This document shows, piece after piece, positions 3,719 to 22,290 of a stretch of 64,000 nucleotides of DNA. The stretch's first letter is position 1. Each line of letters opens with the position of its first letter. The stretch lies in the NCBI RefSeq assembly GCF_003018255.1, contig NZ_CP027440.1; one strand, 5' to 3'. The stretch is from Escherichia coli. GTDB taxonomy: Bacteria > Pseudomonadota > Gammaproteobacteria > Enterobacterales > Enterobacteriaceae. The notes below the pieces were generated by a model. That model did no database searches, was not told the DNA's origin, and saw only the letters and a program-made list of their open reading frames with translations. The position numbers and the translations under genes are program-made.

Positions 3719-6700
3719 TCATGACTGATTAAAGCGAAACAGCGGTAACAGGAAACGTTGCGACTGTTCAACGATAGCCTCCATTGTCTCTGGTGTTAAT
3801 TGCCGCCAGAGCCGTTGATACCAGATATCATCACCTTCGCCACGCACCATCATGTTGCCTTCGTAAGCCTGAAGGAATTTCGTACGGGCTTTTTGTAACG
3901 TGGAATCGTCATCCAGCATGGCATCGTTTTGCGCGTCATAACAGGTTTTTAGCCACGCGCCGCCACTTTCAGGTAACACCAGCAATGGCGCGGACATTCC
4001 TTCACGATACCCCTCAATCAGTTGTGAGAGGTAATGCAAAGCCTGTTCGGCTGCAAGCGGCGGAAAACGCCACTCGCCGTCTTTGCGTAGAAAAAGGCGA
4101 CTTTCACCATTACCACCGCTGGCACAGTAGACAAGGTGTTCCAGCCAAAGTTGCATTCCCTGCGCCACACTTAATAAAGAGGGACGCCAGCGCAACAGGC
4201 CATCCGGCTGCACCTGCGGCAACCAGCCAGTTATCTGCACACCGTTGCAGGCGAGATCAATTTCCATACTCTGCCCCGGCTGGCGACGTGCAATGACTCT
4301 GTCGGCAAGCTGCTGCATCTCCTGGCACTGTGTTTCCCAGAAAATTTCACCAAAAGCGCCATACGGTAAATCCCCTGCCGCCCGGAAGCGGCGGAATAAG
4401 CGATCGGCATCATCCTGCTCAACCAGTGCATTCAATAACTGCTGATTGATTTGATAACGGCTAAGCCCTTCCAGAATAAATGGCTCGGTGTCGGGGATTT
4501 CGCTGTCTTCAGTACGGAAGTTCACCTGCAAACGCATCTGGAAGAACGCCCGTACCGGATGTGCCCAGAATCGTTGTAGCGTTTCCAGCGGCACGGTTTC
4601 CGGTAAGGTAAACGGCAGCGGCTGAACAAATTCAGAATGTGCTTTACCAGCCTGGCTGGCCGCAGGTAGCCATTCACGAGCATAGCTTTGTCGTTCGCCT
4701 GGCTGGTAGTTTTGCGGATCAAACGGCATCCGGGTATGGAGGCAAGTAAGATGCGCTTTTACCCTTGCCTCGCTTTCATCACAGTTGAGCGCTTCATCGC
4801 CCGGTAGATAATGGCTTTGCCCGATGTAGTCGATCAGTTCCTGCACCAGTACCGACGGGAAACGTTCACTGTTATCCTGAATAGAACGCCCGATATAGCT
4901 GATATAGAGTTTTTGCTGCGCGGAAATTAACGCTTCCAGGAACAGATAGCGGTCGTCATCGCGACGGCTACGGTCGCCACGCTTCGGTTTCTGGCTCATC
5001 AGGTCAAAGCCCAATGGCGCAAGCTGGCGTGGATAAACGCCGTCGTTCATTCCCAGCAGGCAAACCACTTTGAATGGGATGGAACGCATTGGCATCAGAG
5101 TACAAATGTTAACCGGTCCGGCGAGAAAACGCTGGCTGATACGTTCCTGATCCAGGCGCTGTGCCAGTTCATCACGCAATAGTGACAGCGGCACCGCGTC
5201 GCCATACTGCGCACCTAAACCTTCGGCGATAATCGCCTGCCATTGTTGTTCGATCAGCGTCATAGCCGCTTCGGTTTCCGCATCCGGCAGGAAGAAGGCG
5301 TTGAGCATATCGCGACAAACCGGCAACCACTCTTCCAGCGGACGCTCCTGCGCCAGCCCGCGACGCCAGATGTTTAGCTGCATTAGCAGTGAAGCCAGAT
5401 GCCCCACCAGTTCTGCAATTAAGCCGCTCGATTCATCATAAGGTAGAACCGATTGCCACTCGCCCTGCGCGCTCTCCATCGCGTAGCCCAGCAACATACG
5501 CGTCAGGCCAAATCGCCAGGTGTGTTGTCCGGTGGCGGGGAGTTCCAGCTCGCGAACGTTGTCGTCATCTATCCCCCAACGAATGCCGGATTCGTTGACC
5601 CACTGGCGTAAATAACGCAGCCCTTCTTCGGTGATGTCAAACCGCGCCGCCAGCACCGGCACATCCAGCAGCGCCAGCACATCCTCTGACACAAAGCGAC
5701 TGTCAGGCAGTGATAACAGGCTGATAAACGCTTCCAATACCGGATGTGACTGCCGCGCCCGACGGTCGGAAATGGCGTAAGGCAGGTAACGATCCGCAGG
5801 TGCGCTACCAAACACAGCCTGAATAAACGGACTGTAGCTGTCGATGTCGGCCACCATCACGATGATGTCGCGCGGAGTCAGTGTCGGGTCTTCCTCCAGC
5901 ATCGCCAGCAGGCGATCGTGTAAAACTTCAACTTCACGCTGCGGGCTATGGCAAACGTGAAAGGTGATACTGCTATCCAGTGGATCAAGCGGGCGTTTGT
6001 TATCGCTACGGGAAAACTCTTCGATGTTTACACCAGCAACGGCGCGGTTTTCCAGTTCCAGAATGTCAGACTGAATGTTATGCAGCAGGTTATCTGGCGT
6101 AACATCGACAAAAGCGTCCAGCTCCTGGCTGCTCTCCAGATCAGAAAGGAGATAAATGTAGTCGCGCCCAAGCTTGCCCCATGAGGCCAGCAGCGGGTTG
6201 CCGACATCCTGTTCACCATCGCTGTTAAAGAGCTGCCCGGCATTTTCGCTGTCGCGAAATAGCGGTAATTCTCGATCTTCAAAACTGTGTCGGCGCTGGC
6301 GAGTCAGTAGTTTCGCCAGATAAGCAGGATCTTTAATGTCGCCCCAGTAATAACGGCAGGGGTTGGTAAACAGGAGATGGATTTCAATATGTTTACCCAG
6401 CGCCTGGAGTGCCTGGAGATAAACAGGCGGTAACGCGGAAATACCGCATATAAAGACGCGCGAAGGTAACCCCGGCGGGCAGGTCGTCGCGGACTCCAGC
6501 GTTTCGATAAAGCGCTGATAGAGATTGGCGCGGTGCCAGCGCGGTTGCCCGAGTTCATGGGTATATTCCACCAACGCCTTCCACAACGGCGCTTGCCAGG
6601 CCTGTGCTTCTCCCAGCCCTTCAACCAAATGTCCTATTTCCCACTGTGCCAGCCAGTCCGGACGATAGACCAGATACTGGTCAAACAGGTCCGCCGCTTT

Positions 6701-9821: not shown

Positions 9822-10697
9822 TCAGGAAACGTGTTGCTGTGGGCTGCGACGATATGCCCAGACCATCATGATCACACCCGCGACAATCATCGGGATGGAA
9901 AGAATTTGCCCCATGCTGATGTACTGCACCCAGGCACCAGTAAACTGCGCGTCGGGCTGGCGGAAAAACTCAACAATGATGCGAAACGCGCCGTAACCAA
10001 TCAGGAACAAGCCTGAGACAGCTCCCATTGGGCGCGGTTTACGAATATACAGGTTGAGGATAATAAACAGCACCACACCTTCCAGCAGCAGCTCGTAAAG
10101 CTGTGATGGGTGGCGCGGCAGCACACCGTAAGTGTCGAAAATGGATTGCCACTGCGGATTGGTTTGCAGCAGCAAAATATCTTCTGTACGGGAGCCAGGG
10201 AACAGCATGGCAAACGGGAAGTTCGGGTCAACGCGGCCCCACAATTCACCGTTAATAAAGTTGCCCAGGCGCCCGGCACCAAGACCAAACGGAATGAGTG
10301 GGGCAATAAAATCAGAGACCTGGAAGAAGGAACGTTTAGTACGGCGGGCGAAGATAATCATCACCACGATAACGCCAATCAGGCCTCCGTGGAAGGACAT
10401 GCCGCCGTCCCATACACGGAAAAGATACAGCGGATCGGCCATAAACTGCGGGAAATTGTAGAACAGAACATAACCAATACGTCCACCGAGGAAGACGCCG
10501 AGGAAGCCCGCATAGAGTAAGTTTTCAACTTCATTTTTGGTCCAGCCACTGCCCGGACGATTCGCCCGTCGTGTTGCCAGCCACATTGCAAAAATGAAAC
10601 CCACCAGATACATCAGGCCGTACCAGTGAAGCGCCACGGGTCCTATTGAGAAAATGACCGGATCAAACTCCGGAAAATGCAGATAGCTACTGGTCAT
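9822..10697 (-). CDS. lgt: Prolipoprotein diacylglyceryl transferase
   Basis: 291-aa polytopic membrane protein with the Lgt signature [12 protein letters not shown]; 6 bp upstream of thyA. Confidence 0.93.
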
Positions 10698-10847
10698 CTG
10701 TCACCACAAGTTCTTGTTATTTCGCTGAAAGAGAACAGCGATTGAAATGCACGCCGCAGGTTTCAGGCGCTCCAAAGGTGCGAATAATAGCACAAGGGGA
10801 CCTGGCTGGTTGCCGGATACCGTTAAAAAATATGTATATGATCCGCG

Positions 10848-17328: not shown

Positions 17329-20695
<3,367 letters not shown>

Positions 20696-20761
20696 TCAGT
20701 AAAAGCGAATGGAGGGAGATTACACGAGATAAAGAACGCGAGCGACAGTAAATTAGGTGCG

Positions 20762-20849
20762 AAAAAAAACCTGCGCATCCGCGCAGGTTGGTGCAAGAGA
20801 CAGGGTACGAAGAGCGTACCGAATAATCTCACCAATCAATACCTCTGGG
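20762..20849 (-). ncRNA. omrA: OmrA small regulatory RNA (OmpR-regulated, Hfq-dependent)
   Basis: 88-nt minus-strand sequence beginning CCCAGAGGUAUUGAUUGGUGAG and ending in a CCUGCGC...GCGCAGG hairpin plus U8. Confidence 0.9.
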
Positions 20850-20963
20850 ATCTTGATTGTGGTCTGCACGACGACTCTTCGCCAGTGAGAAAACGCAAAG
20901 GAATGAAGGGAAATGCAACGAGGTGTGTAAATTGTCGGTTACTGTTACAGATTGATGACCGGC

Positions 20964-21045
20964 AAAAAAAACCTGCGCATCTGCGCAGGCTGGTGTAATT
21001 CATGTGCTCAACCCGAAGTTGACTTCACCTATCAATACCTCTGGG
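20964..21045 (-). ncRNA. omrB: OmrB small regulatory RNA, paralog of OmrA
   Basis: 82-nt minus-strand sequence beginning CCCAGAGGUAUUGAUAGGUGAAG and ending in a terminator hairpin plus U8; it shares 5' and 3' ends with omrA. Confidence 0.9.
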
Positions 21046-21258
21046 ATCACCACTTTAGCAACCTGAAGCCAAACGCCACCAGCGGTCAATCGCAACAGCG
21101 TTTCGCAAAGTGTAACCAAAGGTTTGCAATCTCTTTTTTTGTCTTACTTATTTGCGTTTGGCTCACATTCCCACAATGAAAACACGCCGCCCCTTGAACC
21201 AACGGGCGTTTTCCGTAACACTGAAAGAATGTAAGCGTTTACCCACTAAGGTATTTTC

Positions 21259-22290
21259 ATGGCGACCATAAAGGATGTAGCCCGACTGGCAGGCGTTTCA
21301 GTCGCCACCGTTTCCCGCGTCATTAATAATTCACCCAAAGCCAGCGAAGCTTCCCGGCTTGCTGTGCATAGTGCAATGGAGTCTCTTAGCTATCACCCGA
21401 ACGCCAACGCCCGTGCGCTGGCGCAGCAGACCACTGAAACGGTCGGTCTGGTCGTTGGTGATGTTTCCGATCCGTTTTTCGGTGCAATGGTGAAAGCGGT
21501 CGAACAGGTGGCTTATCACACTGGTAATTTTTTATTGATTGGCAACGGTTACCACAACGAACAAAAAGAGCGTCAGGCCATTGAGCAACTGATCCGCCAT
21601 CGCTGTGCTGCGTTGGTCGTCCATGCCAAAATGATCCCGGATGCCGATTTAGCCTCATTAATGAAACAAATGCCCGGTATGGTGCTGATCAACCGTATCC
21701 TGCCTGGCTTTGAAAACCGTTGTATTGCTCTGGACGATCGTTACGGTGCCTGGCTGGCTACGCGTCATTTAATTCAGCAAGGTCATACCCGCATTGGTTA
21801 TCTGTGCTCTAACCACTCTATTTCTGACGCCGAAGATCGTCTGCAAGGGTATTACGATGCCCTTGCTGAAAGTGGTATTCCGGCCAATGACCGGCTGGTG
21901 ACATTTGGCGAACCAGACGAAAGCGGCGGCGAACAGGCAATGACCGAGCTTTTGGGACGAGGCAGAAATTTCACTGCGGTAGCCTGTTATAACGATTCAA
22001 TGGCGGCGGGCGCGATGGGCGTGCTCAATGATAATGGTATTGATGTACCGGGTGAGATTTCGTTAATTGGCTTTGATGATGTGCTGGTGTCACGCTATGT
22101 GCGCCCGCGTCTGACCACCGTGCGTTACCCAATCGTGACGATGGCGACCCAGGCTGCCGAACTGGCTTTGGCGCTGGCGGATAATCGCCCTCTCCCGGAA
22201 ATCACTAATGTCTTTAGTCCGACGCTGGTACGTCGCCATTCAGTGTCAACTCCGTCGCTGGAGGCAAGTCATCATGCAACCAGCGACTAA
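21259..22290 (+). CDS. galR: Galactose operon repressor GalR (LacI family)
   Basis: 343 aa; N-terminal HTH MATIKDVARLAGVSVATVSRVINN. Confidence 0.93.
   Translation: MATIKDVARLAGVSVATVSRVINNSPKASEASRLAVHSAMESLSYHPNANARALAQQTTETVGLVVGDVSDPFFGAMVKAVEQVAYHTGNFLLIGNGYHNEQKERQAIEQLIRHRCAALVVHAKMIPDADLASLMKQMPGMVLINRILPGFENRCIALDDRYGAWLATRHLIQQGHTRIGYLCSNHSISDAEDRLQGYYDALAESGIPANDRLVTFGEPDESGGEQAMTELLGRGRNFTAVACYNDSMAAGAMGVLNDNGIDVPGEISLIGFDDVLVSRYVRPRLTTVRYPIVTMATQAAELALALADNRPLPEITNVFSPTLVRRHSVSTPSLEASHHATSD

What the first reader, a model, noticed from the sequence alone, without database searches (positions are those of the whole stretch)
20762..21045. Tandem paralogous sRNAs OmrA and OmrB in the aas-galR intergenic region
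Two minus-strand sRNAs about 200 bp apart share the same 5' seed (CCCAGAGGUAUUGAU) and a nearly identical terminator (CCUGCGCAU[C/U]CGCGCAGG plus U8) but differ in the middle, which is a clear local duplication. Each has GTTACA-type motifs upstream consistent with OmpR control.
Basis: partly seen in the sequence, partly recalled or inferred. Interest (0 to 1): 0.45.

Follow-up and report, generated by a model that had tools for sequence, protein, structure and literature searches.

The report
Known E. coli sRNAs OmrA and OmrB

Summary
Confirmed and already known. Window 20762-20849 (-) and 20964-21045 (-) match Rfam RF00079 (OmrA-B) at 96.6 and 86.1 bits against a gathering score of 40. They are 100% identical to the curated K-12 genes omrA (b4444, 88 nt) and omrB (b4445, 82 nt), and they lie in the same aas-galR intergenic region. 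The two copies share 19 of the first 20 nt and 32 of the last 35 nt, but only about 50% of the middle. Their 5' ends are 196 bp apart.

A scan of one genome per species found full-length copies only in Enterobacterales, always just upstream of aas. The terminator helix shows compensatory changes. The GTTACA upstream of omrB (-71..-66) lies in a box invariant across 19 species, and published mutations there (T-75C/A-68G) nearly abolish OmpR activation. The omrA promoter has conserved TGTAACA/TTTACA/GTTGCA boxes and the -12C that the literature links to sigma-S dependence.

The mechanism is published: these are Hfq-dependent, seed-pairing repressors of outer-membrane and other mRNAs, including ompR itself. 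The window's 5' ends pair with the ompR leader (about -19 kcal/mol).

Interest is low.

The parts
20762..20849 (-). omrA, 88-nt Hfq-binding sRNA (aas-proximal copy)
   Evidence: Rfam RF00079 at 96.6 bits, full-length. 100% identical to K-12 b4444. My own CM gives 90.8 bits.
20964..21045 (-). omrB, 82-nt Hfq-binding sRNA (galR-proximal copy)
   Evidence: Rfam RF00079 at 86.1 bits, full-length. 100% identical to K-12 b4445. My own CM gives 89.0 bits.
20830..20849 (-). OmrA 5' end (nt 1-20, CCCAGAGGUAUUGAUUGGUG): single-stranded target-pairing seed plus GGUG
   Evidence: Unpaired nt 1-15 in the MFE fold. 19/20 identical to OmrB. GGUG is invariant in 56 copies although it was not part of the search pattern. 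Pairs with the ompR leader at -19.4 kcal/mol. Published compensatory mutants are in PMC2588501.
21026..21045 (-). OmrB 5' end (nt 1-20, CCCAGAGGUAUUGAUAGGUG): seed
   Evidence: PMC2588501.
20762..20789 (-). OmrA Rho-independent terminator (hairpin 20789-20768, then U8)
   Evidence: Terminator scan, fold, and compensatory changes in 3 pairs with none broken across 56 copies.
20964..20991 (-). OmrB Rho-independent terminator (hairpin 20991-20970, then U8)
20856..20861 (-). omrA -10 hexamer CACAAT (-12..-7), with -12C
   Evidence: Position computed. CCACAAT is conserved in Enterobacteriaceae. The review of published mutagenesis reports -12C as the sigma-S determinant (PMC12692685).
21052..21057 (-). 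omrB -10 hexamer TAAAGT (-12..-7), with canonical -12T
   Evidence: PMC12692685.
21104..21120 (-). PomrB upstream box TTTGGTTACACTTTGCG (-75..-59), containing GTTACA at -71..-66; OmpR (and candidate RstA) site
   Evidence: TTACA and TTTGC are invariant in 19 species from Escherichia to Edwardsiella and Serratia. T-75 and A-68 map here. The T-75C/A-68G mutant loses OmpR activation (PMC13425233).
21087..21098 (-). PomrB second conserved box CTGTTGCGATTG (about -53..-42)
   Evidence: Near-invariant block in 19 species. It probably corresponds to one of the two conserved PomrB boxes described in PMC13425233; that correspondence is my inference.
20894..20949 (-). PomrA upstream conserved region: TGTAACA (-100..-94), TTTACA (-82..-77), GTTGCA (-70..-65), TTTGCG (-50..-45)
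   Evidence: Positions, conservation. Four conserved regions in PomrA are reported in PMC13425233. Assigning individual boxes to OmpR is inference.
18515..20674 (-). aas (flanking gene, co-oriented, 87 nt downstream of the omrA 3' end)
   Evidence: ORF, annotation, and conserved synteny across Enterobacterales.
21259..22290 (+). galR (flanking gene, divergent)

Best explanation
These are the E. coli genes omrA and omrB: two tandem, independently transcribed, Hfq-dependent trans-acting small RNAs.

Each transcript has three parts:
- a single-stranded 5' end (CCCAGAGGUAUUGAU);
- a variable central hairpin closed by an invariant GGUG/CACC helix;
- a G+C-rich terminator hairpin with a U8 tail, the usual Hfq-binding module.

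The 5' end base-pairs near the translation initiation region of many mRNAs: ompT, cirA, fecA, fepA, csgD, flhD, flgM, dgcM and ompR itself. This blocks translation and promotes RNase E-dependent decay. Pairing with ompR-envZ closes a negative feedback loop on the sRNAs' own activator. The divergent middle gives copy-specific targets, for example btuB for OmrA.

Shown here: identity, anatomy, conservation, covariation, promoter-box conservation and seed-ompR complementarity. Taken from the literature: transcription, Hfq and RNase E dependence, OmpR, RpoS and RstA control, and the targets.
For: - **Family and identity.** Rfam RF00079 full-length hits at 96.6 and 86.1 bits against a gathering score of 40. 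Exact identity to the curated K-12 ncRNA genes. The 584-bp intergenic region differs from K-12 at only 3 positions, none inside the RNAs.
- **Spread in E. coli.** The region is present in 5421 of 5426 complete genomes. OmrA is identical in 4913/5416 and OmrB in 5332/5413.
- **Terminators and folds.** Terminators are on the minus strand only. The folds leave nt 1-15 free in OmrA (z = -2.7).
- **Phylogenetic spread.** Across 120 loci holding the exact 15-mer, only Enterobacterales loci have full-length copies. My own CM scores them 53-96 bits, against 28 bits or less for the chance loci. All of these lie next to aas and/or galR.
- **Structure.** The terminator helix has 3 pairs with double compensatory changes and none broken. 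GGUG/CACC is invariant.
- **Promoters.** Promoter boxes are conserved, and the published mutated positions map onto the window.
- **Target pairing.** Seed-ompR leader duplexes are -19.4 and -19.0 kcal/mol at -10..-39 from the AUG; about 1% of shuffled seeds do as well.
- **Literature.** PMC2588501 (Hfq, RNase E, compensatory mutants), PMC13425233, PMC12692685, PMC3945435 (OmpR ChIP) and bioRxiv 10.64898/2026.06.26.734639.
Against: Nothing found contradicts this reading.

- Expression in this particular strain was not and cannot be measured here.
- The hexamer GTTACA alone is not enriched in the window.
- The cirA duplex is not better than shuffled seeds (11-16% of shuffles do as well), even though that pairing is experimentally validated. 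The duplex test is therefore weak.
- PGAP-annotated RefSeq genomes carry no feature here. That is an annotation gap, not counter-evidence.
Confidence: 0.98

Rival explanations
1. The two elements act mainly in cis. They would be tandem terminator or attenuator modules in a long leader of the downstream aas-lplT operon, or read-through from omrA/omrB would drive aas. On this view they are not free-standing trans-acting sRNAs.
For: Both are co-oriented with aas. omrA ends only 87 nt before the aas ATG. The omr-aas adjacency holds across Enterobacterales. The consensus scan found no sigma-70-like promoter on the minus strand in the gap.
Against: Both end in strong terminators: 9-bp stems with 6 G-C pairs, then U8. 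Discrete sRNAs and trans regulation with compensatory mutants are published (PMC2588501). The omrA-aas spacer contains a conserved TAnnnT block about 45 nt before the ATG, which fits an aas promoter of its own. In Pantoea a whole PBP gene separates the two copies, so the copies are independent units.
Confidence: 0.03
2. The repeat is a non-functional intergenic repeat, such as a REP/BIME-like element or a relic of a mobile element, that merely resembles sRNAs.
For: It is a tandem direct repeat containing palindromic G+C-rich hairpins.
Against: There are only two copies in the 64 kb window and a median of one locus per E. coli genome, unlike dispersed REP elements. The position is syntenic across an entire bacterial order. 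The 5' end is invariant, the helix changes are compensatory and the promoters are conserved. Both copies match a curated RNA family full-length.
Confidence: 0.005
3. One or both transcripts are dual-function and encode a small protein.
For: Mechanical ORFs overlap the region: 20753-20869 (-) 38 aa, 20836-21003 (-) 55 aa and 21000-21119 (-) 39 aa.
Against: These ORFs start upstream of the mapped 5' ends or run through the terminators. The central region varies in length by non-multiples of three (72-94 nt RNAs) and in sequence between genera, while the helices are kept. That pattern indicates RNA-level rather than protein-level constraint.
Confidence: 0.005

Closest known systems
OmrA / OmrB of E. 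coli K-12 (omrA b4444, omrB b4445; earlier names RygA/RygB, SraE; Rfam RF00079)
   Same: Sequence is 100% identical over 88 and 82 nt. The locus, order, orientation, spacing, promoters (-12C versus -12T) and terminators are the same.
   Different: Nothing differs within the RNAs. There are three substitutions elsewhere in the 584-bp intergenic region, at window 20886, 21175 and 21189. Position 20886 is at -37 of PomrA and is also variable in another E. coli strain.
Single-copy or chimeric Omr loci of other Enterobacterales (for example Dickeya, Pectobacterium, Lelliottia, Tatumella)
   Same: The 5' seed, the GGUG/CACC helix, the terminator and the position upstream of aas are the same. This is described in PMC13425233.
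   Different: The window has the two-copy Escherichia/Citrobacter/Enterobacter arrangement, with distinct A-type and B-type central regions.
Other seed-at-the-5'-end, Hfq-dependent envelope sRNAs (for example RybB) and other paralogous sRNA sets (Vibrio Qrr)
   Same: These work alike: a conserved single-stranded 5' seed, multiple mRNA targets near the ribosome-binding site, and dependence on Hfq and RNase E. The comparison with RybB is made in PMC2588501 and with Qrr in the 2026 preprint.
   Different: They are unrelated in sequence, have different regulators (sigma-E for RybB, from my own knowledge) and lie at different loci. They are not members of RF00079.

Membership tests
OmrA-B sRNA family (Rfam RF00079) | Covariance-model score above the curated gathering threshold, full-length | tested here: met
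   96.6 and 86.1 bits against a gathering score of 40, model positions 1-87 of 87, not truncated.
OmrA-B sRNA family (Rfam RF00079) | Conserved 5' end CCCAGAGGUAUUGAU(N)GGUG, starting at the transcript's +1 | tested here: met
   Exact in both copies. GGUG is invariant in 56 enterobacterial copies. The +1 is inferred from identity with the K-12 annotation.
OmrA-B sRNA family (Rfam RF00079) | Rho-independent terminator with a long U-tract (Hfq-binding 3' module) | tested here: met
   9-bp stems with 6 G-C pairs, then U8, in both copies. Three pairs show compensatory changes and none is broken.
OmrA-B sRNA family (Rfam RF00079) | [quoted passage not shown] | tested here: met
   aas is 18515-20674 (-) and galR is 21259-22290 (+). 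The synteny holds in Enterobacterales loci.
OmrA-B sRNA family (Rfam RF00079) | Identity with the curated reference genes omrA and omrB | tested here: met
   88/88 and 82/82 identical to NC_000913.3 b4444 and b4445.
OmrA-B sRNA family (Rfam RF00079) | OmpR-dependent promoter | tested here: inconclusive
   The boxes shown by published mutagenesis to be needed for OmpR activation of omrB (T-75, A-68) are present and phylogenetically invariant. OmpR ChIP is published. OmpR dependence in this strain, and the assignment of the omrA TGTAACA box to OmpR, cannot be tested with these tools. The hexamer alone is not enriched.
OmrA-B sRNA family (Rfam RF00079) | The 5' end is complementary to the translation initiation regions of known targets | tested here: met
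   ompR leader: -19.4 and -19.0 kcal/mol, sRNA nt 1-9 against ACCUUUGGG just upstream of the RBS, with about 1% of shuffled seeds as good. The cirA duplex is not significant by this crude test. In vivo compensatory mutants are in PMC2588501.
OmrA-B sRNA family (Rfam RF00079) | Expressed as discrete ~80-90 nt transcripts that bind Hfq | not testable with these tools
   Literature only: Northern blots and Hfq dependence in PMC2588501.

The most novel reading that the evidence does not exclude
The order-wide adjacency of the omr genes to aas would reflect a cis link as well as trans regulation. Partial read-through of the omrA terminator, or overlap of its terminator with the aas promoter region, would couple OmpR/sigma-S activity to expression of the aas-lplT lysophospholipid-repair operon. 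A 2026 preprint remarks on the synteny but does not address transcriptional coupling.
Probability: 0.05. Interest if true: 0.35.

Novelty: already known. Interest (0 to 1): 0.05.

Why it matters
It matters only as a correct annotation. OmrA and OmrB are a textbook pair of paralogous Hfq-dependent sRNAs. They link the EnvZ-OmpR system, and for OmrA sigma-S, to outer-membrane protein composition, iron-siderophore receptors, curli and biofilm, motility and, in recent work, carbon and lipid metabolism. They also feed back on ompR.

The practical point is that NCBI's PGAP pipeline leaves them unannotated in essentially all RefSeq E. coli genomes other than curated K-12. A sequence-only reader therefore recovered real genes that the standard annotation omits.

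Tried and rejected
- **GTTACA enrichment.** 28 found against 23.7 expected, not significant. The motif argument therefore had to rest on position, conservation and published mutagenesis.
- **Consensus promoter scan.** It found no sigma-70-like promoter for either sRNA. This is expected for activator-dependent promoters with poor -35 elements. The -10 hexamers were located from the known +1 instead.
- **Genome-collection scan with the 15-mer.** These hits were filtered out by the terminator test and by my own CM, so the survey is a sample and not a census.
- **RNAalifold on the MAFFT alignment.** It recovered only the closing helix and the terminator, not the central hairpin, because the middle is not alignable between A-type, B-type and other lineages. 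I did not pursue a structure-aware realignment.
- **cirA duplex.** It is not better than shuffled seeds, so the crude duplex test has low power.
- **A third copy.** None was found in the window.
- **Small-ORF, REP-like and aas-leader readings.** All were considered and rejected; see the rival explanations.
- **Footprinted OmpR sites.** A search of Brosse et al. 2016 found none described there.

Full report
**Observation**

Reading the minus strand of window 20500-21400 shows two elements that begin with CCCAGAGGTATTGAT and end in a G+C-rich hairpin followed by eight T. They lie between the start of a minus-strand ORF (ATG at 20674) and the start of a divergent plus-strand ORF (ATG at 21259).

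A cmscan of the whole window against Rfam 15 gave three hits above gathering score. Two are full-length matches to RF00079 (OmrA-B): 20762-20849 (-) at 96.6 bits (E = 6e-18) and 20964-21045 (-) at 86.1 bits (E = 2e-15), against a gathering score of 40. The third is a tRNA.

The 15-mer occurs only at these two places in the window. The terminator scan finds both hairpins on the minus strand only: 9 pairs, 6 of them G-C, a 4-nt loop and a T-tract. The copies are identical at 19 of the first 20 nt and 32 of the last 35 nt. The central 30-36 nt are about 50% identical, which is background for the alignment used. The 5' ends are 196 bp apart.

- The terminator string was written from the plus strand, and its variable position is misplaced by one. 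The RNAs read CCUGCGCGGAUGCGCAGG in OmrA and CCUGCGCAGAUGCGCAGG in OmrB.
- GTTACA as a bare hexamer is not enriched in the window (28 found, 23.7 expected).

**Identity**

The 1.1 kb around the locus is found at 95% identity or more in 5421 of 5426 complete E. coli genomes, flanked by aas and galR. In curated K-12 MG1655 the same intergenic region carries ncRNA genes omrA (b4444, 88 nt, next to aas) and omrB (b4445, 82 nt, next to galR).

The window's two RNAs are base-for-base identical to these genes. The whole 584-bp intergenic region differs from K-12 at three positions (20886, 21175 and 21189), none inside the RNAs. PGAP-annotated genomes show no feature here. That explains why the region looks empty in ordinary annotation, but it is not novelty.

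Within E. coli, OmrA is identical in 4913 of 5416 genomes and OmrB in 5332 of 5413. The most divergent OmrA allele I examined changes the central region and one terminator base, not the seed.

**Comparative test**

Many were chance hits in archaea, Bacteroidota, cyanobacteria and other groups, as expected for a 15-mer in about 300 Gb.

Requiring a perfect hairpin and a T-run 70-95 nt downstream kept 68 copies, all from Enterobacterales. The three non-enterobacterial candidates that also had a downstream T-run all failed the hairpin test. A covariance model I built from 56 of these copies scored every Enterobacterales copy at 53-96 bits and nothing else above 28 bits. It found exactly two copies in the window.

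tblastn with the window's Aas and GalR shows the sRNA or sRNAs immediately upstream of aas and co-oriented with it, usually with galR divergent, from Escherichia to Serratia, Edwardsiella and Pantoea.

In the alignment, GGUG (nt 17-20) and CACC are invariant although they were not part of the search pattern. The terminator helix has three pairs with double compensatory changes (G-C to A-U in 14 sequences, U-A to C-G in 3, C-G to U-A in 5) and no broken internal pairs. The central hairpin differs in sequence and length between lineages, with RNAs of 72-94 nt.

In Escherichia, Citrobacter, Enterobacter, Kosakonia and Pluralibacter, the upstream copy is B-like and the downstream copy A-like. The A/B split therefore predates these genera. 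All of this agrees with the description in PMC13425233.

**Promoters**

With +1 at 21045 and 20849, taken from identity with K-12, the -10 hexamers are:
- omrB: TAAAGT, with -12T;
- omrA: CACAAT, with -12C.

The review PMC12692685 reports that -12C makes omrA sigma-S dependent, and that changing it to T removes that dependence.

Alignment of 125 nt upstream of each copy in 19-20 two-copy genomes shows deep footprints:
- **omrB:** TTTGGTTACACTTTGCG at -75..-59, with TTACA and TTTGC invariant even in Serratia and Edwardsiella, and CTGTTGCGATTG at about -53..-42.
- **omrA:** CTGTAACAG at about -100, TTTACA at -82, GTTGCA at -70, TTTGCG at -50 and CCACAAT at the -10.

PMC13425233 reports that the T-75C/A-68G double mutation cuts OmpR activation of PomrB from 81-fold to 3.3-fold and abolishes activation by RstAB. 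Both bases are present at those positions in the window.

OmpR ChIP-chip binding at both genes is reported in PMC3945435, and direct OmpR activation of both in PMC12692685. The OmpR inference is therefore well supported for omrB. For omrA the conserved boxes are real, but which of them bind OmpR is not established in what I could read.

The two promoter regions align better than all 500 shuffles (score 51 against 34.0 +/- 5.0). This is consistent with a duplication unit that included the promoter.

**Mechanism**

Both RNAs fold with a terminator hairpin and a central stem-loop. In the OmrA minimum-free-energy fold nt 1-15 are unpaired. In the OmrB fold part of the 5' end (nt 7-15) is drawn into the closing helix.

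The first 21-23 nt of each window sRNA form a duplex with the K-12 ompR leader at -10..-39 from the AUG, at -19.4 and -19.0 kcal/mol. Nucleotides 1-9 pair with ACCUUUGGG, and about 1% of shuffled seeds do as well. The same crude test is not significant for cirA.

PMC2588501 shows by compensatory mutations that the 5' end pairs in vivo with ompT, cirA and ompR mRNAs. [quoted passage not shown] Repression of ompR-envZ gives negative feedback on the sRNAs' own activator.

Copy-specific behaviour comes from two sources. The central region of OmrA pairs with btuB. The promoters also differ, with RpoS acting at omrA and RstA at omrB.

**Rivals**

- **cis-acting aas-leader reading.** The strong terminators, the published trans genetics and a conserved TAnnnT block about 45 nt before the aas ATG, which fits an aas promoter of its own, all make this unlikely. 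A minor read-through contribution cannot be excluded and is offered as the novel case.
- **REP-like repeat.** This is excluded by copy number, synteny and conservation.
- **Small-protein coding.** This is disfavoured because the middle varies by non-multiples of three while the helices are kept.

**Verdict**

The feature is already known in every respect, so interest is low.

Noticed in passing
L124 (E. coli strain 300709, NZ_CP025903.1); insertion point corresponds to window 20912-20915: An IS3-family element is inserted at about -63..-66 of the omrA promoter. It separates the conserved TTTACA and TGTAACA upstream boxes from the core promoter. Both sRNA genes remain intact. This is a natural variant predicted to uncouple omrA from its upstream activator sites.
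   Followed up: partly
L123 (E. coli RIVM_C019217 and at least five sister strains); insertion point corresponds to window 20963-20970: An IS200/IS605-family element (tnpA) is inserted in or at the T-tract of the omrB terminator, between omrB and the omrA promoter. Both sRNAs still score full-length with the CM.
   Followed up: partly
L030 (Pantoea stewartii) 2747-2822 and 4789-4879; also L059, L076/L077, L102: In Erwiniaceae the two Omr copies are about 2 kb apart, not about 200 bp. An FtsI-like class B penicillin-binding protein gene (687 bits to NF011685, below its 737-bit cutoff) lies between them. A BisC-family S/N-oxide reductase gene lies between galR and the first copy.
   Followed up: partly
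L092 (Mangrovibacter yixingensis) 1698-1986; L066 (Serratia grimesii) 10379-10747: The two copies in each of these genomes have central regions 76% identical to each other. That is more than to either E. coli OmrA or OmrB, and suggests lineage-specific re-duplication or gene conversion rather than inheritance of the A/B pair.
   Followed up: partly
window 31738-32053 (between yqeG 30508-31737 and tRNA-Gly(CCC) 32053-32126): The window lacks the roughly 11.9 kb yqeH-ygeQ segment that K-12 carries between yqeG and glyU. From my own knowledge that segment is the ETT2 type III secretion remnant plus IS2. Here yqeG is followed directly by the tRNA, as in strain JNE23-011.
   Followed up: partly
window 20675-20761 (omrA-aas spacer), especially 20742-20748 and 20717-20722: The short spacer contains a conserved CTGTCGC block and a TAnnnT block (TAATCT in E. 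coli) about 45 nt before the aas ATG, across Enterobacteriaceae and Serratia. This is a plausible aas -10 element with a weak -35 that abuts the omrA terminator.
   Followed up: partly
window 21229-21244 (+): A gal-operator-like sequence ATGTAAGCGTTTACCC, with 2 mismatches to GTGKAANCGNTTMCAC, lies 15 nt upstream of the galR ATG. Related genera show closer matches, such as GTGTAATCGTTACAC, at the equivalent place. It contains TTACA-like bases that should not be counted as OmpR boxes. The match is not statistically strong on its own (2 found, 0.61 expected).
   Followed up: no
RefSeq E. coli genomes generally (for example L001, hits H38-H53): PGAP annotation leaves omrA and omrB unannotated ('none' under the match) in the genomes listed. 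Only the curated K-12 MG1655 record names them.
   Followed up: yes
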